Virus record (IMG/VR): IMGVR_UViG_3300035502_001274
Coordinates: 32,001-96,000 of that record
Length of the DNA: 64,000 nt
From: a virus
Taxonomy: Duplodnaviria; Caudoviricetes
Direction: 5' to 3' (one strand)
Part shown: one piece after another, positions 6,543 to 43,885 of the stretch
Numbering within the stretch: position 1 is the first letter of the stretch
Layout of the letters: every line of letters starts with the position of its first letter
Program-made: the position numbers and the translations under genes
Notes under the pieces: generated by a model
Seen by the model: only the letters and a program-made list of their open reading frames with translations
What the model was told of the DNA's origin: nothing
Database searches by the model: none

Positions 6543-6989
6543 TCAGCGTGCCATTTTATAATAGATATATTCTCGGCCATTCTCCTTGACGCTATAACTT
6601 CCTTCAATATGGAATCCAAACATCTTGTAGAGATGGATAGCCGCGAGATTATCGATCAATACCGACAGCACCTTGGGTTTATAGGTATCCAGAATGATGT
6701 GCATCATCGCCTTTCCATATCCAAGATTTCGTGTGGACTTCTCGACTTCAAAATCATAGAGAAAGGGATCCTGGCAGTCGATGCTGCTCACACAAGCACG
6801 GCCCACATAGTGCTCCACCGAATCGCTGATTTCCTTGAGGTCTTCACGCTTATCCTTTGGTAAATCGAATTTGGAAATGAAAAGTTCTCGGTAGTCTTTC
6901 TCTTTGCAATAGAAACGAAGTTCGACCGCTTTCTGAGATTCCCAATCATTTGGATTGACAGTCTCTTTCACCTTATAAGTTAACTCCAC
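6543..6989 (-). CDS. GNAT family N-acetyltransferase
   Basis: FEVEKSTRNLGYGKAMM (acetyl-CoA motif A) and N-x-x-A-x-x-LY-x-x-x-GF (motif B). GTG start with GGGAG SD. Confidence 0.85.
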   Translation of the reverse strand: MELTYKVKETVNPNDWESQKAVELRFYCKEKDYRELFISKFDLPKDKREDLKEISDSVEHYVGRACVSSIDCQDPFLYDFEVEKSTRNLGYGKAMMHIILDTYKPKVLSVLIDNLAAIHLYKMFGFHIEGSYSVKENGREYIYYKMAR

Positions 6990-7016
6990 GATATTTACGC
7001 TCCCTTAAAGAAAATT

Positions 7017-7045
7017 GAGATGAATCGCCCTTTGCGATTCATCTC
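7017..7045. terminator. Stem-loop
   Basis: GAGATGAATCGC-N5-GCGATTCATCTC perfect inverted repeat. Confidence 0.6.
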
Positions 7046-7279
7046 TTATGATAACAGGATTCGATATTGACCTTGCTTCAGCAGATAGGCAAAGAGGGAT
7101 TCAACGGTGTCGAACGTGATCCCATCTCTGTTGGCAGGCAGGTTGATGCACTTGTAGTTCTTGAGAGGGCCTGATGCGTTACGGTCCTCATAGGTTTCCT
7201 TCATATAGCTGGTAGGTCCGCAGGGATACAATGCGATGCTCTGATTGGACGCAGTATTCATGACGATTGTCTGGTACAT
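7046..7279 (-). CDS. Small hypothetical protein
   Basis: ATG at 7279 preceded by AAAGGAGG SD; 77 aa. Confidence 0.65.
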   Translation of the reverse strand: MYQTIVMNTASNQSIALYPCGPTSYMKETYEDRNASGPLKNYKCINLPANRDGITFDTVESLFAYLLKQGQYRILLS

Positions 7280-7329
7280 GGGTCCTCCTTTCTGTCTCTC
7301 CATATTTTATGTGTTGAAATGACATAAAA

Positions 7330-7710
7330 GCATTCCTGGCGTGTCAGCCTCACGGGCCGCCGTGCTCCTGCGGTAGAGCATAGACCCTTGGTTGAGGATT
7401 TTGTAAAGTGTTATGGTTTAACGTTTGAGCGTTAAAGGTAGAAAAGCGTTAAACGTTAATCGTTACTGGTTAAGCATTAAGCTTTGAGTTCATAGAAGGA
7501 TTCGAACCTTCATGCTGTCCAACCCTTTCCGCGGGGGACGGCTTACCTCCAATTCCTTGACAAGGAACCAGCTTACCTGATTAACACTCAGGGGCTGACC
7601 AGTGTAGAGAGCCGTATCTTTCGCCGGCAGTCCACGATTATACCGTTAATACTTTCTCCTCAACGGTCAAGAAGCCACACTTCTACGGCGATTCGACACG
7701 TCAGGAATAC
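7330..7710 (-). ncRNA. Candidate ~380-nt structured ncRNA with a 7-nt repeat tract and a T-arm mimic
   Basis: Ends 7695-7710 and 7330-7345 pair at 15/16 positions. About 11 heptamers at 7406-7485. GAAGG-TTCGAAT-CCTTC T-arm at 7495-7511. Confidence 0.7.
7406..7485 (-). repeat. Degenerate 7-nt tandem repeat (AA-N3-TT-like)
   Basis: Minus strand reads AAAGCTT AATGCTT AACCAGT AACGATT AACGTTT AACGCTT ttc TACCTTT AACGCTC AAACGTT AAACCAT AACACTT. Confidence 0.8.
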
Positions 7711-7745
7711 TTATTATGCTAATTGGTTTGCGCTGCTATACGATT

Positions 7746-8375
7746 TTACTTGCCGTAGCTGAACTCGATGTCAGTGCGGGCGTTGCTCATGGACAGCGCG
7801 GTGTCCACATGCAGCCGGAACTCGTCGATCTCGTCGACCATTTTGGTGAGCAGTTCCTGAACCTTCAGAGGATCGACGTAGACGATATTGTGGCTCTCCA
7901 TGTAGGTCTTGTAGATCTCCGTGCTGGTGGGATCGGTGGTCTTGGAAGAAGCACCGGCGCTCTCCACCATCTTGACAGCGGAATCTTCCACGGACTTGAC
8001 AGCGCGCTCATAGTTGGCGTGCTGGGTATTGGTCTGACGAGCGATCTCGTCCATCAGCGTGGCCTTGTGCACCATGGCATGGGCCTTGGCATCGATGGCC
8101 TCGGCGACGGTATACTCCTTGCCGGAGATGGTCACCTTTGTGGTCGCATTGGACAGGACGACGGCCATCTTCATGGCGTTGCGGCGGTCAATCAGGTCAG
8201 TGACCTTCTGATAGGTGGCCTTAATAGCCTCCGCGGCGTCCTCGGGCGTAACGGGAGAGCTAACGGTGTTAATGGTGATGACGTACTTGCCGTCACGAAT
8301 CAGCTTATTGATTCGCGCGTCCAACGTCTTCAGCTCAGCCAACGCTTCGGTGATTGTCATTTTCTCAGTAATCAT
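7746..8375 (-). CDS. DIP1984-like helical/coiled-coil protein
   Basis: Internal pseudo-repeat ITEALAE/TVAEAID and SNATTKV/SNARTDI recalls the DIP1984-family pattern (LAEAL...TN..T...TLxEA...NWxTEL). Has an SD and an early promoter. Confidence 0.6.
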   Translation of the reverse strand: MITEKMTITEALAELKTLDARINKLIRDGKYVITINTVSSPVTPEDAAEAIKATYQKVTDLIDRRNAMKMAVVLSNATTKVTISGKEYTVAEAIDAKAHAMVHKATLMDEIARQTNTQHANYERAVKSVEDSAVKMVESAGASSKTTDPTSTEIYKTYMESHNIVYVDPLKVQELLTKMVDEIDEFRLHVDTALSMSNARTDIEFSYGK

Positions 8376-8448
8376 TGCTAAGACTTCCTTTCTGTATAAT
8401 AGTTAATCTTTGAATACACTTCTTTGGTGTACTAACACAGTGTCACTA

Positions 8449-8460
8449 AAATGATATGTA
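8449..8460 (-). promoter_or_regulatory. Putative early promoter TACATATCATTT
   Basis: Motif recurs upstream of non-structural genes and resembles the AT-rich early promoters of phiKZ/AR9. Confidence 0.55.
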
Positions 8461-8476
8461 TTTAAGATGAGCAAGA

Positions 8477-9151
8477 TCATTTCCGATCTTGCTCATCTTT
8501 CTCGTTGCCGTAAGGTGGCTCTTCATTCTTGAATTCTTTATCGTACCACTTAGAGGCTTTGACGCGCTTTTCGTTCTTCTTGCTGTCAAAACCAGTCTGA
8601 TATCGGATCTTGATCTCAATGCGAGGTTTCAGGGAGTAGAACTTCTCTAAGCTCGCAAAGGTCACTAGGTTATCATTCAAGAGAAGATGACCCTGAATCA
8701 TATCGAGATAGGTTTTCATCAGGTTATCCACATCGCAGGACCCGATGGGCCAGATCTGCTTCTGCTCCGCTGCATAAATTTCAGCGTTGGAGAATTGCGA
8801 TGTAGGTGTCGGTAGATACGCTTCAATCTTGATTTCACACCTTGTATAGACAACGTATCGTTCCAAGTAATGTTTAATGAGTTTACGATTCTCGGCGGCT
8901 CCCTTCACATAGAAGTGGGTTCCGTCCGATCGTGGTCTAGGAGCAGGTTTGGGCACCAGATAGAGCACAAACTCGACTGTGTTCCATTGGATCTGGTCAA
9001 TACGCTCCATGACCTTGTCAAATGACTTTTGTGAAAAGGGATACTTATCTCTGATGTAAGAGAGGAGGCCCTCCGTATCCGATGGAAGGCCTCCATACTT
9101 GAGATTGTATTCCTCTTCTTGAGTGGATAAGCGATTCTTTGGCTTAGCCAT
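8477..9151 (-). CDS. rusA: RusA-like Holliday junction resolvase
   Basis: PKPAPRPR N-terminal motif and DVDNLMKTYLD...NDNLV catalytic motif (DxDN..K...D). ATG at 9151 with AAGGAG SD. Confidence 0.8.
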   Translation of the reverse strand: MAKPKNRLSTQEEEYNLKYGGLPSDTEGLLSYIRDKYPFSQKSFDKVMERIDQIQWNTVEFVLYLVPKPAPRPRSDGTHFYVKGAAENRKLIKHYLERYVVYTRCEIKIEAYLPTPTSQFSNAEIYAAEQKQIWPIGSCDVDNLMKTYLDMIQGHLLLNDNLVTFASLEKFYSLKPRIEIKIRYQTGFDSKKNEKRVKASKWYDKEFKNEEPPYGNEKDEQDRK

Positions 9152-9181
9152 CGGAATCACTCCTTATCAAGTTAGAGTTAG

Positions 9182-12155: not shown

Positions 12156-15100
12156 TCAGGCGTGCTGTGCTGACGCTACCTTACGATGCTGGGTTCTGAG
12201 GTACTGGCTAGCAGCATCCTTTTCGCCCAGTCGTCTGGTCTGTGTCTGATTGACCACCACGGTCGGTTGGACTTTGGTGGTATCGCCTTCGCCATAATTG
12301 ACATTGACTGAGGTTGTAGCGGGAGCAGTCTTGGTAGCATTATTGACGATGGTTCTCATCATGCCAATAATGGTGTCCAATCTGGTTTCCACGCCACGAT
12401 TGCTTGTGATGGTAGCCACTTCAGTGCCGTCGCCATAGTAAGTCGGCATAGTAGTATCATGGCTGCGCTGGCCAGTAGAGCTCACGCACATGCCATCTCC
12501 AAAGCCGACGGCTCCTTCTCCATTTCCAACGGAGCTGGAGTTCATGAAGCCTTTATAACGACGGACTTTCATGGTGTGTTTCTTACGATAGTCATTCAGG
12601 TCTTTGTAGGTGGGACCCATGGGAGGCGTACCACCATGGCTCAGATCCTGATTATCGCCAGCATACATCTCTGTGTGCTTCATGGTGTTGTTATTGGACG
12701 TTCTATCCCAGTTCTGATACAGAATATCACCCGGCTGCAGGATGGACGTGTCCAAGGTATTGCTGCCGTTATTGGTCCAGATCGTCTCAAATCGACTGTC
12801 TTGTGCCTGCGAAGTAGAACTTGCAGACATGTTATTGACACCCAGAGCCTTCTTGTAGGCCCAGCCAACCGTAGATGCACAAGACGCGACACCCTGATCG
12901 GGATCCTGCACCTCTGTGGTTGAATATCGCAGTTTACCCAACTTACTGGCCATCATGTCGACGACACCGGTCTGATTGGGACTTACAGTGGTGCTTGCAG
13001 AATAGCTACTGCCACTACTTTCGGTATCAGCAGTAGTATCGTCTGCAGACGATGTAGAGTTATAGGTCAAGCCCAAGCTGCTATACAGCGAACTCAAGCC
13101 AGTGGTAAATGCATTGCCAAGGTTATCCATGATACCGTAGCCAATGCCATTGCCTGTGGATGGAGCTTTATCAGTAATTGCATTATTCCGTCTACTGGTG
13201 GTTCCGCTTCTGTAGAGAACCCACTTGGTAGCGGTACTATCGATGGCTGCCCATGTATTGCCATCACTGCCCTTATAAGTCGCATAGATCTTGATGGCAG
13301 ATCCAGATTTGAGGTTCTCCTTCACTGTCGAATTGGCATTGGGCCCTGAATACACCTTCAGGGTCTTACCATCAGCGATGTACTTGGTCTGTGTAGTGGA
13401 GCTTACTGCGGCTCCGGGGTATTTGGACTTAATGCCGGCACTGATTGCATCAGAACGGCTCACGCCTCCACTGACGGTGCCTCCTGAAGTGTAAGCAATT
13501 GTGCCATCCGCACGGACAGCATCCACGCTATTATCCAGGGTTGCGTCATTGGCGAATCTATTGTAATAATCACGGGCTGCCAATTTACGCTTGTTATACT
13601 CATCGGGATACTTATTGGCATAGCCACTAAACATCTCGTAGTTGTCCAGGGCCAACTTAGTCGTCGCGTCAACACTATCTTCACCAGCATTCACTTTGGA
13701 GACAATGTTACTGTCTTCAATTTCTGTACTTGCATATTTCAGCTGCGTAGTTAAATCAGTCCAGTTCAGACCGTTCTTCTTCGCATACTGGAAGAGGGAG
13801 TATCCGCGAGGGCCAGTCCACTGAGCCAAGCCAAAGCCAGGATAGTAGTGACCATCGCTGCCCTTATATGCATCTTTATTGATGGAGATATTGGAGCGTT
13901 CATATGCAGGAAAGAGTACGTTGGTGGTATAATCGTCCAACGCAGAAGAACTATTCACCACTTGATAGCCGGGGAAGGATTTCAGGTAATAGCCCTCAAT
14001 ACAATCCGGCTTATTAGCGGACTCTGCTTGCCAGCAACCCATCATACCGGCAGCGCCTTCCTTGGTAAATCCAAGGGAGCGTAAATACCGCCAGATGGTT
14101 TTCTGCTGTTGCGCTCTTTCTTCAGTGGTATAGGTAGAACCTGCCGAGCTGCTGTATTCATCAGAGGCGTCTGCCGACGTAGACTCATCAGAGAGGCCCA
14201 GCATATTGCTGATACCACTGGTAACGGCCGATGCAATCGAAGAGAATGCACTGCCAAAGATGCTATCGATTAGGCCATAGCCGGCAGCGTCTTTGCGGCC
14301 AACCGACCAGCCATTGGTCATATTCTTCTGGAGATCGGAAACTTTGTACTTGGAGGTTCCCCGCATGGGGTCTTCTACAATGGCATTGCCCGCAGAATCC
14401 ATGCCAGTCAAAGTCACAATGTGACCAGCCTTGGTATAGGGAGTGGGGCCATAACCCTGGGATTTACCAGCCAAGATAACCGGATTTCCGTTTTTGAGGC
14501 TACTTACAATGTCAGCGGACGTTCCAACCTTGGAGGTTGTCATGCCCAGCTGAGAAGCTCCCTGATCGAAGAGTGCTTCAGAAGCGCCTCCCTGTGTAAT
14601 ATATCCATTGCCCGCTGCAAACTGTCCCACTGAAGCAGGAGAGAAGCCTAAGCCCATTGCCTGGGCAGCATTGGCCAGCGCGGTAGGACCGCATCCACCA
14701 GTGCCCATGGTACTCGTCTTACCATTGGGGAATTTGCCGATAGGCATATTTGCCCATCTCGGGTCATTTTGCATGCCAGCGCCATATCCGACGGCTCCTG
14801 TGCCATATCCAGCAGTATTGCCGGTCGTGGTGTCGCCAACGGAGACTTCATACTGGCTATAATCTGTCGTATCGCCCTTGCCAAACAGGTTCTTGAACCG
14901 GTTCCAAAGGCTACTCCGAGAGTTCTTGAGGTTATTATAAGCATCTACCGACAACGAAGTGCCGTTCGCTGCATTATAATTCTCGACCTCTTTGCTCATT
15001 GCACTGAGTGCAGTATCGAGCTTTGCATCATCGTCATCGTCGGCCAGAACCTTGTAAATGATGCATGCAATCGATTGGATGAAATCGATGCCCATCACTT

Positions 15101-18100
15101 CAGTGACGATTTCGGACAGAATCTGAATCACTGCGCCCCATCCAGTAAAGGCTGCAATACCTTGCCAAATGGCTGCGATGGTTCTCATCTTGCCATCGAC
15201 ATATTTCTTGTCGATCTTGAAGATCTTCTCAGGATACAGTAAGCCGTCGATAGCAGATGCTGCAGCAACGACTGCATTGATAACAGCCAACGGTGTCGCC
15301 AAGCTTGCTGTGGTAATGCCAGCGACGCCGCATGCAGCTGACAGCTTCTCAAGCATGCCCTGCACGAGATTATTGGCTTTGGTAGCGATGCCTTTACAAA
15401 GGTCATCAATAAACGTGCCAATCTTACCAATAACTTTTCCAGCTGTGGTTGTACCAAGCTTGGAACCAATCATGGTATTCAAGGCTCCTTTGATTGCCGT
15501 CAGCGCTTTGGTGATGATTGAAGTTTTGCCAGTAGCGGATGCTGCAACAGCAGCAGCTCCTTCAGCAGCAGCTGAAGCCACTTTGCCAGACTTGGTGGCG
15601 ATAGCAGCAGCCTGCGCTGCATAGGACGCACTCGCCGAGAGTGCTTTCTTGGCCACTGTAGATGTTGATTTACGTGCAGCTACCAGTCCACCCTTCACAA
15701 GAGCGGATTTTAGATCAGTATTGGAGACCGTTTTGGTAGCATTACCTTCCTCATCGGTTTCAAGTGCTCTAGAGTTGTTAACACCGCCAGTGCCATCGTT
15801 GCCGAGGCATTCGGCAAGAACTCCGCCAATGGCGTCTTTTGCTAAAGTAAAGCCATCGCTGATCAACTGGCCAACCGCCGAACGAATCTCGTCATTCTGA
15901 AGGACCATGCCCAGCGCTGCAACTCCTGCGGTAACCACGCCAGCTGTTTTCAGGATGCTAGTGAAACTATCAGCGTCATCGACTTCATCTTCGGCATTCT
16001 CAATATCGGATTCCTTATCGGACTTATCGTCCTCCTTTTCATCCTCATCATGAGCGTTGCCTGAAGTATTACCGGTGACTTTCTTGTGTTCTTCTTTCTT
16101 CTCGTTGTCTTTGCCAATACGGGCATTGACCTCAGCTTGGGCTTCAGCGGCGGCTTTTGCGTTGCTTTCCTGCACCTTCTTAGCCTTCTCTGAGTCAATC
16201 TTGTCGGCTACATCGTCATTGGCACCGAGCTCATCGGTGTCAAAGACATCACCAGTCTGCGCATCAAGCTGAGCCTTATTCAAGCCCACCAAGTTTTGCA
16301 GATGTGCGACGGCTGTCTGGCAAAGATCTCGAATGCTAATGATTGCTTGTCCTTCAGCGGTCTTAGGAGCTTCAGCGCCCTCGGGATTCTCCCGACGGTT
16401 CTTCCACTCATCGTAATGATAGGTAAACTGCCGAAGATCTTCCTGGGTGTTGATGTCGATGCCATGCTTCTTCAGCTCTTTGGTACGAGCCTTGAATTCC
16501 TTATCGCTGAGGACCTTATCAGAGACGTTATTATCCGTCTTGGCCCATCTACGGCGCAGATTGCTGAGCTTACGCTCTTCTTTACCTGCAGCTCTAGCAG
16601 CCTTACGGTTTTTCTTGTAGTTTTTCTTGTCACGTCTGGCTCCAAGCCAGTCAATTGCATTGCGCTTGCCTTCCGTGGTTTCATTGTAAATATCAGCCAT
16701 GTCGGCAGCCAAATCGCTGCTCTGGAAAAACTGACCAATGACAGGAAGAGATGCCAGATTATACTGGAAACGATCCAGAAGCTTATTGGTATCTTCACCA
16801 GCAGCTTCTTTCTTCTCCCAGTAGTCCTGCAAGTTGGCTTCCTTATTATCACGGAGGAAACTATTGAAGAGCTTTTGGCCCTTCTTACGAGTGGGCTTCA
16901 GCAGTGTTGCCAGCAGCTGGAGGGGAGCACCAACGATGGAAGCTCCTGCGAATAGGCCGCCTTTCAGCAATCCACCCGCTGCTTTTCCGAGAGGCCGCAA
17001 AATCCATTTCATGAAGACATTGCCAATTGGCTTGAGAATGCCCTCAATGGTATTCTGGACTTTTTCGCCCACCTTCTCGATAGCACCCTTAGCAGTATCT
17101 GCCATGGCGCCGCCGAGGTTTTGGAAAGCATCAATAACTGGACCAAATGCCAGTCTGAATGGAATTTCAATCTTCTCTTTGGCCCACCACATGAATTCTT
17201 CAGCAGTGGATTGGAACCAGATACTGGCAGGCTCGATAAAGTTCAGCTTCAACATGGTTCCAATTCTGGAGAAGAGACCATCTTTCGTTCGCTTGCCCTT
17301 ATCGTCCTTCGTGCCATAGAGATAATCGTTGAACTTGTCAGAAGCACCAGCAATACCCACGGCTGCGCCAGCGATGGCAGCACCGATAGGTCCACCAAAG
17401 GAGAATGCCGAGCCAAGAAGGCCCATCTGAGACAGGCCAGCAGCGCCAATGGCGCCAAAAGCACTGCCCTTCAGAGTATTCAGAATCTTTCCTACGAAAG
17501 ATCCTTTCTTCTTACCTCCGCCTTGAGCCTGGCCAGCTTTGATTTTACCAGTGAGCTTATTGTAAGCATTGCTGAGAAGCGTTCCAGTCCGAGAACCGTC
17601 ATCGTTCTTCTTGCCAAAGAGGATATCCTGGACTTTCTCGTTGCGCAGTGCAAATGCACCAGCGGCACCAACGATGGCAGCACCAAGAACGCCTCCGGGA
17701 AGAACCATGCTAGGCAAGAAACCAATGGCCTTTGCCATGCCAGTCCCGCTGAATCCTGTGGCAGTACTCAGCGCTTTGAGCATGACGCCACCAGCAGCTC
17801 CAAGCCCCAACGTGGGAATCAACTTCTTGAAGCTATCTCGAGTGCTCTTAGAGATCAAACCGCCTTCACGCTCGCCGGCTTCATTCTTCTTGCCGAAGAG
17901 CATGCTTTGGAATCCTTCCGACTCGGTTAGAATGGAGACAGCCATGCCAGCGATGGCACCACCAACGGGGCCTCCAGGTAGGAACATGGAACCCAGCAGT
18001 CCAAGATGACCACCAGCAGCCATGCCAACGCCGGCGCCAATGACACCTCCAGTGAGGATCTTGGGTGCCTTCTTACGAAGGAAAGCATTGAGTTGCTGCA

Positions 18101-20786
18101 GGATATTCTTCTTGGTCTTTTCAGGGTCTTTCTGAGTATCCTTATCACCACCTAACGCCTCTGCGTTGGCAGTGAGTGTTTCAGACAGATTCTGGGTTGC
18201 ATCGAAGAGAGACATTTGGCCATCAATTTCACCCTTGGTGGCTTTACCACTCTTGGGATCGATACCAAAGTACTCCATAACCTTAGAGCCCATTGACTGG
18301 AAATTGGTTTTCACGGAGTTATCGTCTCCAAAGAAGACGTCCTTAAACCAATCTCCAACTTTACCAGCTTTCTCTTTGACTCCCTGGCCAAACTTGGTCT
18401 TGGATATCCAGTCCAAAGCCTTCTTAATGACAGGAGAATTGAATACTTTTGCCATGAAACCAGTCTTGGGGTCCCAAGCTTGCTTCGTGGTTTCATTCAT
18501 CTCCTGCACATTATCGGCGGTACGCTTCTCCGGGGTTTGATTCTTATTTAGGGCTCCCGAGAAGTCACCATTAACGATACCACCGTTACTGGGAGTTTCC
18601 GGTGTATTATCACCGCCGTCTCCATTGCCTCCGCCACCACTCGGTCCAGTAGTAGGACCTTGTGTAGTTTCCACATGGGGAGGAAGCGCTAAGACAGCAG
18701 GAGCAGCTCCAGGACGATCGATCATGGTATTCTCATAGATCGTCCCAAAGAACTTGTCAATGACACTGGAGACACCCTTGGAGTATCGGTTATTTCCGCC
18801 TTGATAGAAACGATATGCACGATTAGCAGCTCGATGAATATTGGCTTTGGCACCTTTAACGCGCTTATCGGGAGCATTATTCAGCCAATCGAAGACACCT
18901 CTAGCAAATCCTTCGGCGTTCTCCGTCTTCATCCGCTCTTCTTCGGTCTGCCGATCACGGCGTTTACCACTCTGGGTATAGGCGCCACCGTTGGACTCTC
19001 GTAAGTCAATGGCTTCCGACTCGATCAACTCCCGGAGCTTATCCAGGGTCATCTTACCGTACTCGTCGGCAAAGTCCATGCCGTATTGGGTGAACGCACT
19101 GTCCGTTGCTTGCATCTGCTCCAGCATGGAAGCAGAATTGGCACGGGCAATATTCACTGCTTTTTGCAGTTCCATCACCATGCGCTGGGTATCGACGGCC
19201 GTCTTCTTCGTCTCTCCGTCAATTCCACTCGTCTCATTGATGGTCGTGATGGCCTTGCGCATGACAGAATCGAGCTGCGTACGCATAGCCTTCGTCATGC
19301 CCTCTGTATTAAGAACGGCATTATTGACGATTTCATTGACTTTATCCTGGGTATCCTTATCGAGTTGAGCCCACAGTTTGGCATCCCGAACGTCATCGGG
19401 ATTGGTGCTAAACTGCTTATTGAAGATATTGGCGAAGGGCTGCTCGATGGAATCCTGGAACCGGTTCTTCACACGGCGCTTGATCTCAGAGGCGTTCTGG
19501 AAGCGGCCTGTTCCTGCATCATAATAGCGAGCTTCCTGGTGGGTAATGGCAGCTTTGATCTCGGCCAACTCTTTGGGAATGACTGTGACCAATGCTTTTT
19601 GTGCATCACCGTTCCAAGACATCTCGCCATGTTTATATTGATTGAAGCGAAGCGTGCGATGAGTGTTGGGGTCGATACCCAAGATGCCACCAATCAGACC
19701 AAGGATGGTATCCTTGGTACTGCCGGAGTTCATCTTATATTGGTAACTACCCAGCTCCGTCAGAAGGGACTTGGTGATGGTGTTGATCTGAGAATCACCA
19801 CGAGCGATAGACCGACGTCCACCTTTGGTGAGCGCTCTTTTCATCAACCATTCCAGAGCGAACTTCTGAGGCTGGATTTTGCCACCTCCGCCCAGTGCCA
19901 TCTTGATCATGGTAGGATCCATCATACCTGTCAAGGCCATAATCTGGCCCAGAGCAGATGCATCGATGTTATCCTTGACCATCTCTTTATAAGAGCTCAT
20001 ATCAAACCAATCTTCACCCAAGAACTTGGCGTTCTTATTCTGGGTGGAAGATAGGGTCCGACGTTCTCTCCTGGCTTGGCGCTCTTCTTGCTTCTTCATC
20101 CAGCGCGTCATCTGGTCATAGAATTGGAGATGCGCCTGGTTGGTCGCCGACTGAGACTGTGACTGGAACTTCACCAATTCTACCAAATTGGAGTTGATGG
20201 CGCCCAGTTGATTCTCAATCTTGGCGAAGTGCTCGTTCTGATTGGCCATCTGCATAAAGATGGCGTTGGTGATTTGCGCTGTCTGGTACTCCGCAGTCTT
20301 GATCTGGGTTTTACCCAGAACAGAGCTCATCTGTTGGAGTCCAGCCAGCGTTCTATAGTCAGTAGAAGTAAAATTAACCGCACTGGCATTCAGTCCGGCA
20401 GCTCTATCGCTCTTCGGTTCATCACTAGGCTGCTGATCCGAATAAGAGATAGTGGATGATTCCGAAGAACCATCCAAGAACGCTTGCCAGTCGTCGTAGC
20501 TTTCTTCTGAGAGATCTCCCAAAGCTAAATTGCCCTGCTTAATGTCGTTCCAGGCATCCGTCAAGAAGGATTTGGCCTTCTTGGAGATGACAGTCCGATC
20601 ATATTGGGTAGTGGTCGTCCGGATCTTCGTCTGATTAAGCCGGATGAAGTCTCTCATAGCGTCAACGCCTGAACGTGCGCCACGAACTAATTCTGCCGTA
20701 TTGGGGGATAATGAGGTTGCCACTTCCAGGGAGGAATAAGCAACGCTCTTGCCCAAGTTGCGGAATACGTTACGGCTAGTAGCCAA
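12156..20786 (-). CDS. Giant tail-associated / tape-measure-like protein with C39-like peptidase, phage tail lysozyme, SH3b and NlpC/P60 domains
   Basis: 2876 aa. C39-like: MQNDPRW...GCGPT...GHIV...EDP. Phage_lysozyme2: IWRYLRSLGFTKEGAAGMMGCWQAES...GFGLAQWT. NlpC/P60: ASCAS...LQPGDILY...HTEMY. Also glycine-zipper repeats. Confidence 0.8.
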   Translation of the reverse strand: MATSRNVFRNLGKSVAYSSLEVATSLSPNTAELVRGARSGVDAMRDFIRLNQTKIRTTTTQYDRTVISKKAKSFLTDAWNDIKQGNLALGDLSEESYDDWQAFLDGSSESSTISYSDQQPSDEPKSDRAAGLNASAVNFTSTDYRTLAGLQQMSSVLGKTQIKTAEYQTAQITNAIFMQMANQNEHFAKIENQLGAINSNLVELVKFQSQSQSATNQAHLQFYDQMTRWMKKQEERQARRERRTLSSTQNKNAKFLGEDWFDMSSYKEMVKDNIDASALGQIMALTGMMDPTMIKMALGGGGKIQPQKFALEWLMKRALTKGGRRSIARGDSQINTITKSLLTELGSYQYKMNSGSTKDTILGLIGGILGIDPNTHRTLRFNQYKHGEMSWNGDAQKALVTVIPKELAEIKAAITHQEARYYDAGTGRFQNASEIKRRVKNRFQDSIEQPFANIFNKQFSTNPDDVRDAKLWAQLDKDTQDKVNEIVNNAVLNTEGMTKAMRTQLDSVMRKAITTINETSGIDGETKKTAVDTQRMVMELQKAVNIARANSASMLEQMQATDSAFTQYGMDFADEYGKMTLDKLRELIESEAIDLRESNGGAYTQSGKRRDRQTEEERMKTENAEGFARGVFDWLNNAPDKRVKGAKANIHRAANRAYRFYQGGNNRYSKGVSSVIDKFFGTIYENTMIDRPGAAPAVLALPPHVETTQGPTTGPSGGGGNGDGGDNTPETPSNGGIVNGDFSGALNKNQTPEKRTADNVQEMNETTKQAWDPKTGFMAKVFNSPVIKKALDWISKTKFGQGVKEKAGKVGDWFKDVFFGDDNSVKTNFQSMGSKVMEYFGIDPKSGKATKGEIDGQMSLFDATQNLSETLTANAEALGGDKDTQKDPEKTKKNILQQLNAFLRKKAPKILTGGVIGAGVGMAAGGHLGLLGSMFLPGGPVGGAIAGMAVSILTESEGFQSMLFGKKNEAGEREGGLISKSTRDSFKKLIPTLGLGAAGGVMLKALSTATGFSGTGMAKAIGFLPSMVLPGGVLGAAIVGAAGAFALRNEKVQDILFGKKNDDGSRTGTLLSNAYNKLTGKIKAGQAQGGGKKKGSFVGKILNTLKGSAFGAIGAAGLSQMGLLGSAFSFGGPIGAAIAGAAVGIAGASDKFNDYLYGTKDDKGKRTKDGLFSRIGTMLKLNFIEPASIWFQSTAEEFMWWAKEKIEIPFRLAFGPVIDAFQNLGGAMADTAKGAIEKVGEKVQNTIEGILKPIGNVFMKWILRPLGKAAGGLLKGGLFAGASIVGAPLQLLATLLKPTRKKGQKLFNSFLRDNKEANLQDYWEKKEAAGEDTNKLLDRFQYNLASLPVIGQFFQSSDLAADMADIYNETTEGKRNAIDWLGARRDKKNYKKNRKAARAAGKEERKLSNLRRRWAKTDNNVSDKVLSDKEFKARTKELKKHGIDINTQEDLRQFTYHYDEWKNRRENPEGAEAPKTAEGQAIISIRDLCQTAVAHLQNLVGLNKAQLDAQTGDVFDTDELGANDDVADKIDSEKAKKVQESNAKAAAEAQAEVNARIGKDNEKKEEHKKVTGNTSGNAHDEDEKEDDKSDKESDIENAEDEVDDADSFTSILKTAGVVTAGVAALGMVLQNDEIRSAVGQLISDGFTLAKDAIGGVLAECLGNDGTGGVNNSRALETDEEGNATKTVSNTDLKSALVKGGLVAARKSTSTVAKKALSASASYAAQAAAIATKSGKVASAAAEGAAAVAASATGKTSIITKALTAIKGALNTMIGSKLGTTTAGKVIGKIGTFIDDLCKGIATKANNLVQGMLEKLSAACGVAGITTASLATPLAVINAVVAAASAIDGLLYPEKIFKIDKKYVDGKMRTIAAIWQGIAAFTGWGAVIQILSEIVTEVMGIDFIQSIACIIYKVLADDDDDAKLDTALSAMSKEVENYNAANGTSLSVDAYNNLKNSRSSLWNRFKNLFGKGDTTDYSQYEVSVGDTTTGNTAGYGTGAVGYGAGMQNDPRWANMPIGKFPNGKTSTMGTGGCGPTALANAAQAMGLGFSPASVGQFAAGNGYITQGGASEALFDQGASQLGMTTSKVGTSADIVSSLKNGNPVILAGKSQGYGPTPYTKAGHIVTLTGMDSAGNAIVEDPMRGTSKYKVSDLQKNMTNGWSVGRKDAAGYGLIDSIFGSAFSSIASAVTSGISNMLGLSDESTSADASDEYSSSAGSTYTTEERAQQQKTIWRYLRSLGFTKEGAAGMMGCWQAESANKPDCIEGYYLKSFPGYQVVNSSSALDDYTTNVLFPAYERSNISINKDAYKGSDGHYYPGFGLAQWTGPRGYSLFQYAKKNGLNWTDLTTQLKYASTEIEDSNIVSKVNAGEDSVDATTKLALDNYEMFSGYANKYPDEYNKRKLAARDYYNRFANDATLDNSVDAVRADGTIAYTSGGTVSGGVSRSDAISAGIKSKYPGAAVSSTTQTKYIADGKTLKVYSGPNANSTVKENLKSGSAIKIYATYKGSDGNTWAAIDSTATKWVLYRSGTTSRRNNAITDKAPSTGNGIGYGIMDNLGNAFTTGLSSLYSSLGLTYNSTSSADDTTADTESSGSSYSASTTVSPNQTGVVDMMASKLGKLRYSTTEVQDPDQGVASCASTVGWAYKKALGVNNMSASSTSQAQDSRFETIWTNNGSNTLDTSILQPGDILYQNWDRTSNNNTMKHTEMYAGDNQDLSHGGTPPMGPTYKDLNDYRKKHTMKVRRYKGFMNSSSVGNGEGAVGFGDGMCVSSTGQRSHDTTMPTYYGDGTEVATITSNRGVETRLDTIIGMMRTIVNNATKTAPATTSVNVNYGEGDTTKVQPTVVVNQTQTRRLGEKDAASQYLRTQHRKVASAQHA

Positions 20787-41475: not shown

Positions 41476-41627
41476 TTAGTCGGGGAAACTCGACAGTCGT
41501 TCCTCATTGGATGAAGTAGATTGAGCTGCGGTCTACTTCATCCGATGCTTAATTCGTTTCCTGTCTGCCCACGCCAATAAAATACAAAAAAGAGGCAAGA
41601 AAGAAGCCAGCGCCCTTTCGGGCGCCA

Positions 41628-41700
41628 GCCACCCAGCCGGACTCGAACCGACGACCTTCAGTTTATTAGACTGACGCTCTACCAACTGAGCTATGGTCTT
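41628..41700 (-). tRNA. tRNA-like RNA, anticodon AAT (Ile), with a defective acceptor stem
   Basis: D-arm TAGCTCAGTTGGTAGAGC, anticodon arm TCAGT-CTAATAA-ACTGA, T-arm GTCGG-TTCGAGT-CCGGC. Acceptor AAGACCA/TGGGTGG pairs at only about 4/7. No CCA. Confidence 0.7.
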
Positions 41701-41714
41701 TTTCTTTCTCATAA

Positions 41715-41726
41715 AAATGATATATG
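41715..41726 (-). promoter_or_regulatory. Putative early promoter CATATATCATTT driving the tRNA-like RNA
   Basis: Identical to the motif at 30357-30368; lies about 15 nt upstream of the tRNA-like body. Confidence 0.55.
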
Positions 41727-41844
41727 CGTTAAAGTATAGAAAATACGGGAAGTTTTAAAGTGCTGATTTATGGACCCATGACCAATATCATAAAAGGTCA
41801 GGATCTATAAATCAGCATTTTATCTCAAGGAGGAATATCCGATC

Positions 41845-42411: not shown

Positions 42412-43186
42412 TAACATCATTCACACCTATGACATTCCCATCTTTGGCGAAGAGAGCGACAGTGAGAAGACTCTGAAGAAGTTGCGCAATATCTGGCGCG
42501 ACGCCTGCAACTTCCGGGATAATGTGGACGGCGTTGTCCGTCTCAATTTCCGTGGAGAAGTGGATGCCGCCGGCAAGGAAGCCATTGCTGTGGGCATGAA
42601 TATTGGCCAGTTTGCCAAGATTCTGAGCTACTACGTCAATGCTTACCTCCCCAAGACCGAAGGAGCAGCCGCTGTGAAGAGCATCTTTGCAGAGGAGCCT
42701 GGTCTGAGCCTGGATACGACGCTGGACTGGATCCAGCATACTGGCGAAGTGAAGAACTTCGCCATGGGCAAATATGGCGTCTTCAACTTCCATTTCTATC
42801 CGCCGATGGAGTGGGCCAAGTACAGCATGACCACCATCGCCGGCGCGGCCAGCTTCATGCCGTTCGAGATCCAGGATTACAGTGTCATCTGCAATGCCAT
42901 CACCAAATGTCCCAAGGGAGCTCGTCCGATGGTGTGGCTTAATCCCACCATCATCCAGGCTTTCTGCGAAACGGCAGAGTGTGACATTGATTACGCCAAG
43001 ATGCAGGCTTACGTCTCTTCTTTTGTGATCATTGCAGCTCTGGAGAATGATGGGACCATTGATGATGCGATGGTTACCCAGCTCTGGGAATCTCTGCGGA
43101 ACTTCTGTGAAGATGACTGCAGCATTGAGATGTTGCAAGGTCTTTATGACAGCGCAGAGACGCTTCTTCACACAGTTCTCAAATAA
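42386..43186 (+). CDS. Hypothetical protein
   Basis: ATG at 42386 (or 42380) after AGGAGG; the ORF-track N-terminus overlaps the previous gene. Confidence 0.75.
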   Translation: MKLHLMQNDNIIHTYDIPIFGEESDSEKTLKKLRNIWRDACNFRDNVDGVVRLNFRGEVDAAGKEAIAVGMNIGQFAKILSYYVNAYLPKTEGAAAVKSIFAEEPGLSLDTTLDWIQHTGEVKNFAMGKYGVFNFHFYPPMEWAKYSMTTIAGAASFMPFEIQDYSVICNAITKCPKGARPMVWLNPTIIQAFCETAECDIDYAKMQAYVSSFVIIAALENDGTIDDAMVTQLWESLRNFCEDDCSIEMLQGLYDSAETLLHTVLK

Positions 43187-43269
43187 AATAAGAAATTATG
43201 GACGATTGCTTAACGTATTTAGCAGTCGTCCATTCTTTCACCCAGGGCGACAGATTTAGGAGGGTCTAG

Positions 43270-43461
43270 ATGGAATTCACCTGCATTTGGTATAACATGG
43301 ACCAAGAAGTCAAGAGGGACATCATTGAAGCCAAAGATTCCGAAGAGGCCAGCGCCAAAGTCTACAGCTTATATGGCGGAAACCCGCCCGCGCCTGCATT
43401 GAGCATCATGGCCAGCAGCGGCCGATGCGATATTGGTGGGTATTTCAACTCACGTTGGTAA
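43270..43461 (+). CDS. Small hypothetical protein
   Basis: 63 aa, AGGAGG SD. Confidence 0.65.
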   Translation: MEFTCIWYNMDQEVKRDIIEAKDSEEASAKVYSLYGGNPPAPALSIMASSGRCDIGGYFNSRW

Positions 43462-43474
43462 GGAGAATATTCTC

Positions 43475-43885
43475 ATGACATTTCTCAACGTATTGGGAGC
43501 ATCCTTTGCCATTGGCATTGTGATTCTCCTTGTATTGATGGCATATCGCACTTTTGATAATTGGGCCAATAGAAAGACCCGGCAGAAGGAGATGCTTCTG
43601 CAAAATCACATGTCCATTGAAGAACTTCTGGTATCACTGGAATTCATTCTCAAGACCGAGATGGATCTCTATGAGAAGATGATGGCCAACACAAGCGACG
43701 TGGATTTGACCAATCTCCAGAATTCAGAGTTCAATAGCATCTACCAGAGCTTATCCATGCAATGTCTCAAAGCAGTCTCACCACAATTCTGGGAACTGAT
43801 CGAGATTTACATGGACAGAGAAGCCGTTCAGACCTACATCACACAGCGGGTCTATAACTATCTGGCTGATAAGGTCAGAGAATGA
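43475..43885 (+). CDS. Membrane-anchored hypothetical protein
   Basis: ATG at 43475 after AAGGAG; N-terminal transmembrane helix. Confidence 0.7.
   Translation: MTFLNVLGASFAIGIVILLVLMAYRTFDNWANRKTRQKEMLLQNHMSIEELLVSLEFILKTEMDLYEKMMANTSDVDLTNLQNSEFNSIYQSLSMQCLKAVSPQFWELIEIYMDREAVQTYITQRVYNYLADKVRE

What the first reader, a model, noticed from the sequence alone, without database searches (positions are those of the whole stretch)
7330..8460. DIP1984-like protein plus a closed ~380-nt RNA with a 7-nt repeat tract and a tRNA T-arm mimic: candidate ribonucleoprotein system
Seen: an early-type promoter (8449-8460) precedes a 209-aa helical protein with an internal two-fold pseudo-repeat. An RNA starts 35 nt after its stop, and its ends (7695-7710 / 7330-7345) pair at 15/16 positions. 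Inside are a perfect T-arm (GAAGG-UUCGAAU-CCUUC, 7495-7511) with no rest of a tRNA, followed by about 11 in-register heptamers (AA-N3-UU-like, 7406-7485). Established: T-loop modules are used by tRNA mimics such as tmRNA and bacterial YrlA Y RNAs. Inference: the 7-nt period is an array of binding sites on which the protein oligomerises, one subunit per heptamer, to form a defined RNP of unknown function expressed early in infection. I know of no described function for this gene-RNA pair.
Basis: partly seen in the sequence, partly recalled or inferred. Interest (0 to 1): 0.88.

Follow-up and report, generated by a model that had tools for sequence, protein, structure and literature searches.

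The report
Phage helical protein with heptamer-repeat RNA
Just behind a small helical-protein gene, this giant gut phage encodes a real, knotted 385-base non-coding RNA with a run of 7-base units and tRNA-like hairpins. It is a divergent copy of a gene-plus-RNA pair found in over a hundred phage and prophage loci here (the protein is in 745 GenBank phage records, phage T5 included). Its job has never been described.

Summary
The RNA features are real. A 385-nt RNA lies at window 7328-7712 (minus strand), 33 nt after the stop of the 209-aa ORF. Its ends pair 15/16, it has a perfect T-arm, and it shows strong 7-nt periodicity (lag-7 z = 6.6).

It is a divergent member of a widespread module: a PHROG-1491 helical protein followed by a pseudoknotted RNA of 310-470 nt. 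I found the RNA behind the gene in every one of the 79 untruncated IMG/VR loci, in 25 of 27 bacterial-assembly loci, and in T5, pVp-1, BM15 and KIL1.

Covariation on 38 representatives supports the closing stem, three 3'-domain helices and two pseudoknot helices. All are kept in the window through compensatory changes. In typical relatives only the first ~86 nt are catalogued, as the orphan Rfam motif RAGATH-27. The window copy does not match that model.

New here:
- Anticodon-arm-like hairpins are strongly enriched in the central region of the RNA.
- Heptamer units also sit beside the gene's own ribosome-binding site.

Not supported: the 'DIP1984-like' label and the internal protein repeat.

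Most likely this is an autoregulated protein-RNA particle tied to tRNA biology. Binding is untested. The same module was already reported by this scan on at least eight other genomes.

The parts
8449..8460 (-). Recurrent phage promoter-like motif (contains ATATCATTT), placed just after the hairpin that ends the RusA gene
   Evidence: The 9-mer occurs 17 times in the 188.8-kb genome against 1.2 expected, mostly upstream of genes. No sigma-70-type site was found.
8401..8414 (-). Two heptamer-like units (UUCAAAG AUUAACU) in the mRNA leader, about 10 nt upstream of the Shine-Dalgarno GAAAGGAAG
   Evidence: Sequence. It is one of 16 two-unit hits in the genome. Leader units are enriched across the family: 21 of 38 against 3.4 shuffled and 0 of 35 control windows.
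7746..8375 (-). 209-aa helical protein of family PHROG 1491 (the T5.085 family); no Pfam family
   Evidence: phrog_1491 E 2e-52 over the full length. There are 1065 homologs and 745 GenBank phage records. The AF2 model is helical with no specific fold match.
7328..7712 (-). The whole non-coding RNA element, 385 nt
   Evidence: Boundaries come from closing stem P1. MFE z is -5.85. It is conserved in syntenic relatives.
7695..7712 (-). P1, 5' strand of the closing stem, followed by the conserved junction GAA
   Evidence: P1 is 97.6% paired over 38 lineages, and all 15 pairs show changes on both sides.
7328..7345 (-). P1, 3' strand, preceded by the invariant GGCU and followed by a U-run
7685..7690 (-). 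Pseudoknot PK-b, 5' strand CGCCGU, pairs with ACGGCG at 7358-7363
   Evidence: The same helix reads AACCU/AGGUU in L017, GACCAA/UUGGUC in L002, AUCCGA/UCGGAU in L025 and UACCAU/AUGGUG in L096 (read). Core pairs are about 90% paired.
7670..7684 (-). Hairpin H1 (AGAAG-UGUGG-CUUCU). Its loop UGUGG can pair with CCGCA in the P4 loop (7369-7373), giving candidate pseudoknot PK-a.
   Evidence: PK-a columns are 74% paired, with changes on both sides in all 8 pairs of the family alignment. The window-clade pairings were read by eye, not tested statistically.
7576..7592 (-). Anticodon-arm-like hairpin 1: CCUGA-GUGUUAA-UCAGG
   Evidence: Homologous hairpins occur in L002 (loop CUGUAAA), L005/6 (CUGUUAA) and L025 (CUGUUAA), each with a different stem.
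7552..7568 (-). Anticodon-arm-like hairpin 2: GUUCC-UUGUCAA-GGAAU
   Evidence: Sequence, plus Rfam's tRNA alignment.
7495..7511 (-). T-arm GAAGG-UUCGAAU-CCUUC
   Evidence: Present in 6 of 38 representatives. The loop varies little and the stems differ: CUAGG/CCUAG, CUGGG/CCCAG, GCGG/CCGC, ACAGG/CCUGU.
7446..7488 (-). Heptamer tract 1: six units in exact 7-nt register (CUCAAAG, CUUAAUG, CUUAACC, AGUAACG, AUUAACG, UUUAACG)
   Evidence: The three-unit pattern occurs nowhere else in the genome.
7408..7436 (-). Heptamer tract 2: 4-5 units in a register shifted by 3 nt after the break at 7437-7445
7396..7407 (-). Family-wide conserved motif UUUACAAAAUCC, which leads into helix P2
   Evidence: The motif ACAAAAUCC, allowing up to one mismatch, is present in most loci at the same relative place.
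7348..7397 (-). 3' domain: P2 (CCUCA 7393-7397 with UGAGG 7348-7352), P3 (GGGUC 7383-7387 with GGCCC 7354-7358) and hairpin P4 (7364-7379)
   Evidence: P2 is 99.5% paired and P3 86% paired. A covariance model built without the window clade hits 7331-7412(-) at 31.3 bits, E 0.0013. That is the only such hit in the window.

Best explanation
This is a divergent member of a widespread, undescribed phage module. A promoter-like motif drives one transcription unit. That unit encodes a helical protein of about 210 aa (PHROG 1491, the family of T5 gene T5.085). Starting 33 nt after the stop codon, it also carries a 385-nt RNA.

The RNA has a rigid core. A long closing stem joins its ends, and its 5' strand is tied to a three-helix 3' domain by two pseudoknot helices. 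Between these lie a variable central domain and an array of roughly 10-14 heptamer units. In this phage the central domain holds tRNA-like parts: two anticodon-arm-like hairpins and a T-arm.

I think the protein and the RNA most likely form a ribonucleoprotein in which the protein recognises the heptamer units. The few units beside the gene's own ribosome-binding site would then let surplus protein repress its own translation.

The particle probably acts on tRNAs or on enzymes that handle them. In most phages the module sits inside tRNA gene arrays, and the RNA itself carries tRNA-like modules.

Shown here: the RNA structure, the strict gene-RNA linkage, the periodicity and the leader units. 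Inferred: binding, stoichiometry, autoregulation and the link to tRNA biology.
For: Linkage:
- The RNA follows the gene in the 80 IMG/VR loci. The motif and P1 scans found it in most. Four loci those scans missed gave 44-84 bits with model R1. One locus is truncated.
- It is also present in 25 of 27 bacterial-assembly loci and in syntenic close relatives.
- It lies in the unannotated gaps behind the homolog in Vibrio phage pVp-1, Bacillus phage BM15, Pseudomonas phage KIL1 and T5.

Structure:
- On 38 lineages, 86% of cells pair. The covariation score is 0.648, against 0.196 in shuffles (0 of 500) and at most 0.169 when partners are slid.
- A model trained without the window clade finds the window's 3' domain.

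Periodicity:
- Lag 7 is the best lag in 35 of 38 lineages. In the window z is 6.6.

Link between protein and heptamers:
- Heptamer units lie next to the Shine-Dalgarno sequence in 21 of 38 lineages, against 3.4 shuffled.
- In this genome, runs of three or more units (multi-unit arrays) occur only in the RNA. A two-unit site lies in the gene's own leader.
- Conserved basic residues are K16, R21, K52, K57, R64, R65, K69, K97 and K104.

tRNA link:
- The gene lies inside same-strand tRNA arrays in most loci.
- Hairpins with anticodon-type CU-NNN-AA loops occur at positions 80-150 in 13 of 38 lineages, against 0.4 shuffled.
- T-arms occur in 6 of 38.
Against: No experiment or transcript data were available.
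- The protein family is acidic overall (pI mostly 5-6, net charge -2 to -11). That is unusual for a protein that would coat RNA.
- Its fold matches only generic helical bundles (Z at most 9), so nothing marks it as RNA-binding.
- Thermodynamic folding predicts the tract to be only slightly more unpaired than the rest (0.42 against 0.36).
- The two-unit leader pattern is not enriched genome-wide, and the window's own leader match is loose.
- This phage has only one tRNA gene in 188.8 kb, so the array context is missing here.
- The lineages counted are related, so the enrichment counts overstate independence.
Confidence: 0.55

Rival explanations
1. The RNA works essentially alone, as a large ornate RNA like ROOL, GOLLD or OLE. 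Its heptamers and tRNA-like loops make RNA-RNA contacts. These could be within the molecule, between copies (AACGUU and AAGCUU in the units are palindromic), or with tRNA anticodon loops. The upstream protein would be only a co-expressed helper or chaperone, or functionally separate.
For: - The core is very well defined and pseudoknotted, with strong covariation.
- The protein is acidic and has no RNA-binding fold.
- In the window and in L025, the loop UGUUAA of the anticodon-like hairpin is complementary to the dominant unit UUAACG (read).
- Like ROOL and GOLLD, the RNA sits beside tRNA genes.
Against: - The near-absolute gene-RNA linkage across very distant phages is hard to explain without a direct partnership.
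- Heptamer units beside the gene's own ribosome-binding site point to the protein.
- The loop-unit complementarity does not hold in L002 or in typical members (read).
- There is no Rfam match to ROOL, GOLLD or OLE.
Confidence: 0.2
2. The protein is a translational or RNA regulator of other genes, and the RNA is its sponge or antagonist, as CsrB/RsmZ is for CsrA. The useful output would be control of a regulon, not a particle.
For: The layout resembles Csr: many repeated short sites on a structured RNA, plus a few of the same sites overlapping a ribosome-binding region.
Against: In this 188.8-kb genome the three-unit pattern occurs only in the RNA. The two-unit pattern is not enriched (16 found, 17.4 expected), and its only hit beside a start codon is the gene's own leader. 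A sponge would not need an elaborate pseudoknotted core or tRNA-like modules. Host targets were not searched.
Confidence: 0.12
3. The region is not a free-standing RNA gene. It would be a cis element of the transcript or of the DNA: a 3' UTR stabiliser or processing site for the operon, a decayed remnant of a tRNA cluster, or DNA-level iterons for replication or packaging.
For: - The RNA is probably co-transcribed with the gene: only 33 nt separate them, and no promoter motif lies between.
- The closing stem looks like a processing stem.
- The T-arm and anticodon-like hairpins could be relics of tRNA genes.
Against: - Compensatory changes preserve RNA pairing, including long-range pseudoknots. 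A DNA-level site or a decaying remnant would not keep these.
- Size and architecture are conserved from T5-like to Bacillus and gut phages.
- Several members have their own intrinsic terminator directly after the closing stem.
- T-arm stems co-vary.
Confidence: 0.08

Closest known systems
RAGATH-27 RNA motif (Rfam RF03100; orphan candidate sRNA, 86 positions, one annotated hairpin)
   Same: In typical relatives the first ~86 nt of the RNA align to this model from end to end (L017 56.6 bits, E 6e-7; also L058, L024, L016 and L056). The window RNA is homologous to those RNAs through P1, PK-b, the 3' domain and the heptamer tract.
   Different: No hit reached Rfam's gathering score of 76.1, and the window itself gives no hit at E up to 10. 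The Rfam model covers less than a quarter of the RNA. It treats as unpaired the strand that forms P1 and both pseudoknots, and it records no partner protein. I found no paper that mentions RAGATH-27.
TRAP with the trp leader, and CsrA with CsrB/RsmZ (proteins that read arrays of short repeated RNA sites)
   Same: An array of about a dozen short repeated sites on one RNA, with copies of the site near a ribosome-binding region.
   Different: The period is 7 nt, not GAG/UAG triplets or GGA loops. The protein is an acidic helical bundle of about 210 aa, unrelated to TRAP or CsrA. The RNA has a pseudoknotted core and tRNA-like modules. No regulon is detectable in this genome. This comparison rests on my knowledge of those systems; it is not a homology test.
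TnpB/IscB omega RNAs (including RAGATH-18-derived reRNAs, PMC11061315)
   Same: The genetic layout is the same: a protein gene is followed immediately by its structured partner RNA in the 3' part of the same transcript. An orphan RAGATH motif turned out to be that partner.
   Different: There is no nuclease domain, no guide segment and no transposon ends. The protein is small and helical.
Bacterial Y RNA-like YrlA with Ro (Rfam RF02553), and tmRNA
   Same: A stem formed by the two RNA ends, combined with a T-arm-containing tRNA-like module.
   Different: There is no YrlA hit in the region at E up to 10, and ARAGORN finds no tmRNA. The RNA is three to four times longer and has a heptamer array and pseudoknots. 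The neighbouring gene is not Ro or RtcB. The T-arm is present in only 6 of 38 lineages.
ROOL and GOLLD large ornate RNAs of phages (bioRxiv 10.1101/2024.12.08.627333)
   Same: Large, highly structured phage non-coding RNAs of unknown function. As I recall, they also lie next to tRNA genes.
   Different: No Rfam match to either. This RNA is smaller and strictly coupled to one protein gene. It also has repeat tracts that, to my knowledge, those RNAs lack.

Membership tests
RAGATH-27 (Rfam RF03100) | Covariance-model score at or above the gathering score of 76.1 bits | tested here: not met
   The window region gives no hit at E up to 10. Typical relatives score 43-56.6 bits, also below the threshold.
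RAGATH-27 (Rfam RF03100) | Conserved 5' sequence UUACCGAAAACUUUAAAC followed by a hairpin | tested here: inconclusive
   The window keeps only the CGAA junction after P1, then a hairpin (7684-7670). The rest has changed, but it still pairs with the 3' domain.
Extended heptamer-repeat RNA family (not yet catalogued; defined here on 38 lineages) | Closing stem P1 followed by GAA on the 5' side and preceded by GGCU on the 3' side | tested here: met
   Window P1 7712-7695 / 7345-7328, score 37. P1 is 97.6% paired in the family.
Extended heptamer-repeat RNA family (not yet catalogued; defined here on 38 lineages) | 3' domain with the ACAAAAUCC motif and helices P2, P3 and P4 | tested here: met
   Model R1, built without the window clade, hits 7331-7412(-) at 31.3 bits, E 0.0013. 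It is the only such hit in 64 kb.
Extended heptamer-repeat RNA family (not yet catalogued; defined here on 38 lineages) | Pseudoknot helices between the 5' strand and the 3' domain | tested here: met
   PK-b is CGCCGU/ACGGCG in the window, with different complementary sequences in L002, L025, L096 and L017. PK-a in the window (UGUGG/CCGCA) was read by eye only.
Extended heptamer-repeat RNA family (not yet catalogued; defined here on 38 lineages) | 7-nt periodic tract upstream of the 3' domain, with the RNA directly 3' of a PHROG-1491 gene | tested here: met
tRNA (Rfam RF00005 / ARAGORN) | Cloverleaf with acceptor stem; score at or above 29 bits | tested here: not met
   21.4 bits, E 0.2, with four non-pairs in the acceptor stem. 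ARAGORN finds nothing. The T-arm and anticodon-like arms are present.
YrlA / bacterial Y RNA (RF02553) | Match to the family model | tested here: not met
   No hit at E up to 10 in 6900-8600.
tmRNA | tRNA-like domain with a tag reading frame, detected by ARAGORN | tested here: not met
DIP1984 family (NCBIfam NF038048) / DUF6847 (PF20935) | Profile score above the curated cut-off | tested here: not met
   NF038048 scores 12.2 bits against 70, E 0.15. There is no Pfam family at E up to 0.01. The Atlas gives DUF6847 as a lead only: score 0.88, 15% of members, TM 0.51.
PHROG 1491 (annotated 'tail fiber protein') | Full-length profile match | tested here: met
   E 2e-52, residues 3-205 on profile positions 2-209 of 211. 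The 'tail fiber' name has no support from context or fold.

The most novel reading that the evidence does not exclude
The particle is a tRNA-directed device. Its core would display anticodon-arm mimics, sometimes with a T-arm. The 'anticodon' of these mimics differs from phage to phage. The core also carries a heptamer array sized like anticodon loops. Together these would let it act as a decoy or holder that shields tRNAs from anticodon-loop nucleases of host defence systems, or that captures host tRNA-handling enzymes. In this phage the mimics carry GUU and GUC loops (the queuosine family), and the unit UUAACG is complementary to U33-A38 of a GUU loop.
Probability: 0.12. Interest if true: 0.92.

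Novelty: categorically new. Interest (0 to 1): 0.8.

Why it matters
A large, pseudoknotted RNA with a dedicated partner gene is present in over a hundred phage and prophage loci examined here. The partner protein occurs in 745 GenBank phage records, including the classic model phage T5, yet the RNA is unannotated and has no assigned role. It would add a new class to the short list of large bacterial and phage non-coding RNAs. Because it occurs in T5, it can be tested directly by deletion, pull-down and cryo-EM.

Two things connect it to current work on why phages carry tRNAs and how they escape tRNA-cleaving defences: its usual home inside phage tRNA arrays, and its built-in anticodon-arm and T-arm mimics.

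The copy in this window is informative because it is divergent. The unit sequence and most primary sequence have changed, while every core helix is kept through compensatory changes. It also persists in a phage that has almost no tRNA genes.

Tried and rejected
- blastn of the RNA against GenBank phages found no match.
- Single-protein pattern search of IMG/VR found none. The profile search then worked.
- An exact-pattern scan for the 3' end of the RNA in IMG/VR gave 9 hits, all chance matches inside coding sequence.
- PDB sequence-profile search found nothing. Foldseek and VIA-align gave only generic helical bundles, Z at most 9, so no function can be read from the fold.
- PADLOC defence models gave no hit.
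- An internal repeat in the protein is not supported.
- A sigma-70 promoter before the gene or the RNA was not found.
- A wider regulon of heptamer sites in the phage genome was not found.
- I tested whether the tract is single-stranded using base-pair probabilities. The effect is weak (0.42 against 0.36), so this is not used as support.
- I checked by eye whether heptamers are generally complementary to the anticodon-like loop of the same RNA. This holds in the window and L025 but not in L002 or typical members. I keep it only as speculation.
- Literature searches for RAGATH-27, DUF6847, T5.085 and phage tRNA-cluster RNAs with heptamers found no description.
- In the window's MFE fold, GUUGAGGA (7664-7657) pairs with UCCUCAAC (7398-7391) in place of family helix P2. 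This pairing is not conserved in relatives, so I treat it as an artefact or a local alternative.
Full report
**What is in the window**

On the minus strand, the RusA-type resolvase gene (8477-9160; Pfam RusA) ends in a perfect 15-bp hairpin (8499-8464). It contains ATATCATTT. This 9-mer occurs 17 times in the 188.8-kb virus record against 1.2 expected, nearly always shortly upstream of a ribosome-binding site. It is therefore a credible phage-specific promoter element, although no sigma-70-type site is present.

The 209-aa ORF (7746-8375) comes next. The RNA element starts 33 nt after its stop codon. I place the element at 7328-7712, 385 nt. The window is bases 32001-96000 of an IMG/VR record estimated to be 76% complete. 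That record holds a single tRNA gene.

**Check of the observation**

- The ends pair as stated: 15 of 16 positions, with one A.C mismatch. The MFE fold extends this to about 24 bp.
- The region folds far better than shuffles (-141 kcal/mol, z -5.85).
- The T-arm is exact, at 7511-7495.
- The periodicity is real. Over 7396-7490 the lag-7 identity is 0.59 (z 6.6, 0 of 2000 shuffles) and the lag-14 z is 3.6.
- The units lie in two registers. Six are in exact phase (7488-7446). A 9-nt break follows, then four or five more units shifted by 3 nt.
- The T-arm is not isolated. Two hairpins with 5-bp stems and 7-nt anticodon-type loops precede it (GUGUUAA at 7592-7576; UUGUCAA at 7568-7552), along with a long variable hairpin. 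Rfam's tRNA model aligns this stretch at 21.4 bits, below its threshold of 29, and the acceptor stem does not pair. ARAGORN finds no tRNA or tmRNA there.
- The 'DIP1984-like' label fails: 12.2 bits against a cut-off of 70, with no Pfam family.
- The claimed internal repeat is not detectable.

**The protein**

The protein matches PHROG 1491 over its full length (E 2e-52). That family carries a 'tail fiber' name which nothing here supports.

Homologs are numerous: 1065 proteins in the large collection and 745 GenBank phage records. These include Salmonella, Escherichia, Vibrio, Pseudomonas, Bacillus, Klebsiella and Erwinia phages.

The AlphaFold model (pLDDT 77.5) shows four long helices with small beta elements. 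Neither Foldseek nor VIA-align gives more than generic helical bundles.

The family is acidic (pI about 5-6). It keeps a set of conserved basic residues, mainly in the N-terminal half.

**The gene-RNA pair is conserved far beyond this phage**

The closest relatives (45-50% protein identity) keep the synteny and the RNA, with compensatory changes in the closing stem and the T-arm.

A profile search gave 80 IMG/VR loci. Most of them have the motif CGAAAACCUUAAAC 22-40 nt after the stop codon. They also have the motif ACAAAAUCC about 300-400 nt further on, and a long-range stem joining the two ends. My stem finder missed four loci. Those four give 44-84 bits with a covariance model of the 3' domain. 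The remaining exception is a truncated contig.

In bacterial assemblies (mostly Clostridia MAGs, with a few isolates, presumably prophages), 25 of 27 loci have the RNA.

Four GenBank phages carry the same RNA in an unannotated gap behind the homolog. In pVp-1, BM15 and KIL1 an intrinsic terminator follows it; in T5 an annotated promoter does:
- Vibrio phage pVp-1
- Bacillus phage BM15
- Pseudomonas phage KIL1
- T5 itself (gene T5.085; gap 43,141-43,504)

In most loci the gene lies inside an array of same-strand tRNA genes.

**Structure**

I aligned 38 non-redundant elements (A4) and looked for covarying columns without a prior model. The resulting helices were then counted:

| Helix | Percent of cells paired | Note |
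|---|---|---|
| P1 | 97.6% | all 15 pairs change on both sides |
| P2 | 99.5% | |
| P3 | 86% | |
| P4 | 74% | |
| PK-b | 75% | core about 90% |
| PK-a | 74% | |

PK-a and PK-b are long-range helices that tie the 5' strand to the inside of the 3' domain. They cross P2 and P3, so they are pseudoknots. The overall covariation score is 0.648, against 0.196 in shuffles (0 of 500) and at most 0.169 with slid partners.

The window keeps each helix with its own sequence. PK-b, for example, reads:
- CGCCGU/ACGGCG in the window
- GACCAA/UUGGUC in L002
- AUCCGA/UCGGAU in L025
- UACCAU/AUGGUG in L096
- AACCU/AGGUU in L017

A model of the 3' domain built only from typical members finds the window at 7331-7412. 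It scores 31.3 bits (E 0.0013) and has no competing hit in 64 kb.

**Relation to Rfam**

In typical members the first ~86 nt align end to end with RAGATH-27 (RF03100), at 43-57 bits. This is below the gathering score of 76.1. The window copy gives no hit.

The Rfam model marks as unpaired the very strand that forms P1 and both pseudoknots. It is therefore a fragment of this larger RNA. I found no paper that discusses it.

**Heptamers**

Lag 7 is the best lag in 35 of 38 lineages, and the periodic stretch spans roughly 14 unit lengths at the median. The typical unit is Y-Y-A-A-A/G-G-N. In the window clade it is U-U/C-A-A-C-G-N.

Following a lead from earlier notes of this scan, I tested the gene's leader. 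Two-unit patterns lie right next to the Shine-Dalgarno sequence in 21 of 38 lineages. Shuffles give 3.4 (maximum 10), and control windows give 0 of 35. The window has UUCAAAG-AUUAACU at 8414-8401.

In the whole 188.8-kb genome the three-unit pattern occurs only inside the RNA. The two-unit pattern is not enriched, and its one hit beside a start codon is the gene's own leader. This fits an autoregulated particle better than a global regulator with a sponge.

**tRNA-like modules**

T-arms occur in 6 of 38 lineages, in most of them a short distance before the tract (in L019 further upstream), with co-varying stems.

As far as I can tell, the following point is new to this scan. Hairpins with anticodon-type loops are strongly enriched at element positions 80-150:
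- CU-NNN-AA loops: 13 of 38 lineages, against 0.4 in shuffles (maximum 2).
- The broader YU-NNN-R-H pattern: 20 of 38, against 3.7.

The 'anticodon' differs between phages: GCU six times, and also GUU, GUA, GAU, UAA, UGA, CAU and UUU. The window clade keeps a UGU-containing loop in four lineages on four different stems.

The lineages are related, so these counts overstate independence. Even so, the differing stems and loops argue for selection.

**Interpretation**

The structure and the linkage are shown. Binding is inferred from three things: the linkage, the repeat array, and the same units at the gene's ribosome-binding site.

Weighing against binding are the protein's acidity and its uninformative fold. 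The tract is also predicted to be only weakly unpaired.

I put 0.55 on an autoregulated protein-RNA particle tied to tRNA biology. The rivals are:
- An RNA that acts largely alone (0.2).
- A regulator-plus-sponge pair (0.12).
- A cis or DNA-level element (0.08).

**Earlier work in this scan**

Before consulting the notes I had already reached the reading of a widespread gene-RNA module whose 5' part is RAGATH-27.

The notes show that the same module was reported on at least eight other genomes, with the same conclusion. Other notes call this genome an AR9-like giant gut phage. I did not test that.

Noticed in passing
window 41633-41696 (-), with flanks 41600-41730: A second tRNA-like gene. Rfam's tRNA model scores 54.4 bits but covers only model positions 5-66, and ARAGORN does not call it. 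The anticodon loop reads CUAAUAA and the acceptor stem is imperfect. The ATATCATTT promoter-like motif precedes it (41715-41726), and a GC-rich terminator hairpin follows.
   Followed up: partly
whole genome G000; in the window at about 8457, 30360, 31274 and 41723: The 9-mer ATATCATTT (consensus roughly CATATATCATTTTAGTG) occurs 17 times against 1.2 expected, mostly in intergenic DNA 20-40 nt before a Shine-Dalgarno sequence. It is probably the promoter of one temporal class of this phage.
   Followed up: partly
window 8464-8499 (-): A perfect 15-bp inverted repeat with a 6-nt loop overlaps the stop codon of the RusA-like gene. It is a likely terminator or processing hairpin that separates RusA from the gene-RNA unit.
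   Followed up: no
window 7657-7664 and 7391-7398 (-): GUUGAGGA can pair with UCCUCAAC (8 bp), in competition with family helix P2. This pairing is not conserved in relatives. It may be a chance or local alternative fold.
   Followed up: partly
L132 (phage T5, NC_005859), record 43,141-43,504, minus strand: T5 carries the RNA in an unannotated gap between T5.085 and T5.084. The T5 record annotates eight other 'stable RNAs with unknown functions' in its tRNA region, but not this one.
   Followed up: partly
L058:2508-2659: Directly after the heptamer RNA of this IMG/VR phage lies a near-threshold match to another orphan motif, RAGATH-36 (61.1 bits against a gathering score of 70).
   Followed up: no
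window 12156-20786 (-): A 2876-aa ORF lies three genes upstream of the module. Its counterparts in relatives L002-L004 carry Peptidase_C39_2 and Phage_lysozyme2 domains. The synteny from this giant gene through a 722-aa gene, a 235-aa gene, RusA and the protein to the RNA is conserved in those relatives.
   Followed up: no
window 7046-7303 (-): An 85-aa ORF with no family match follows the RNA and ends at a terminator-like hairpin (7045-7017). A 76-aa ORF holds the same place in L002-L004 but not in L096 or L097, so it is probably not part of the module.
   Followed up: partly
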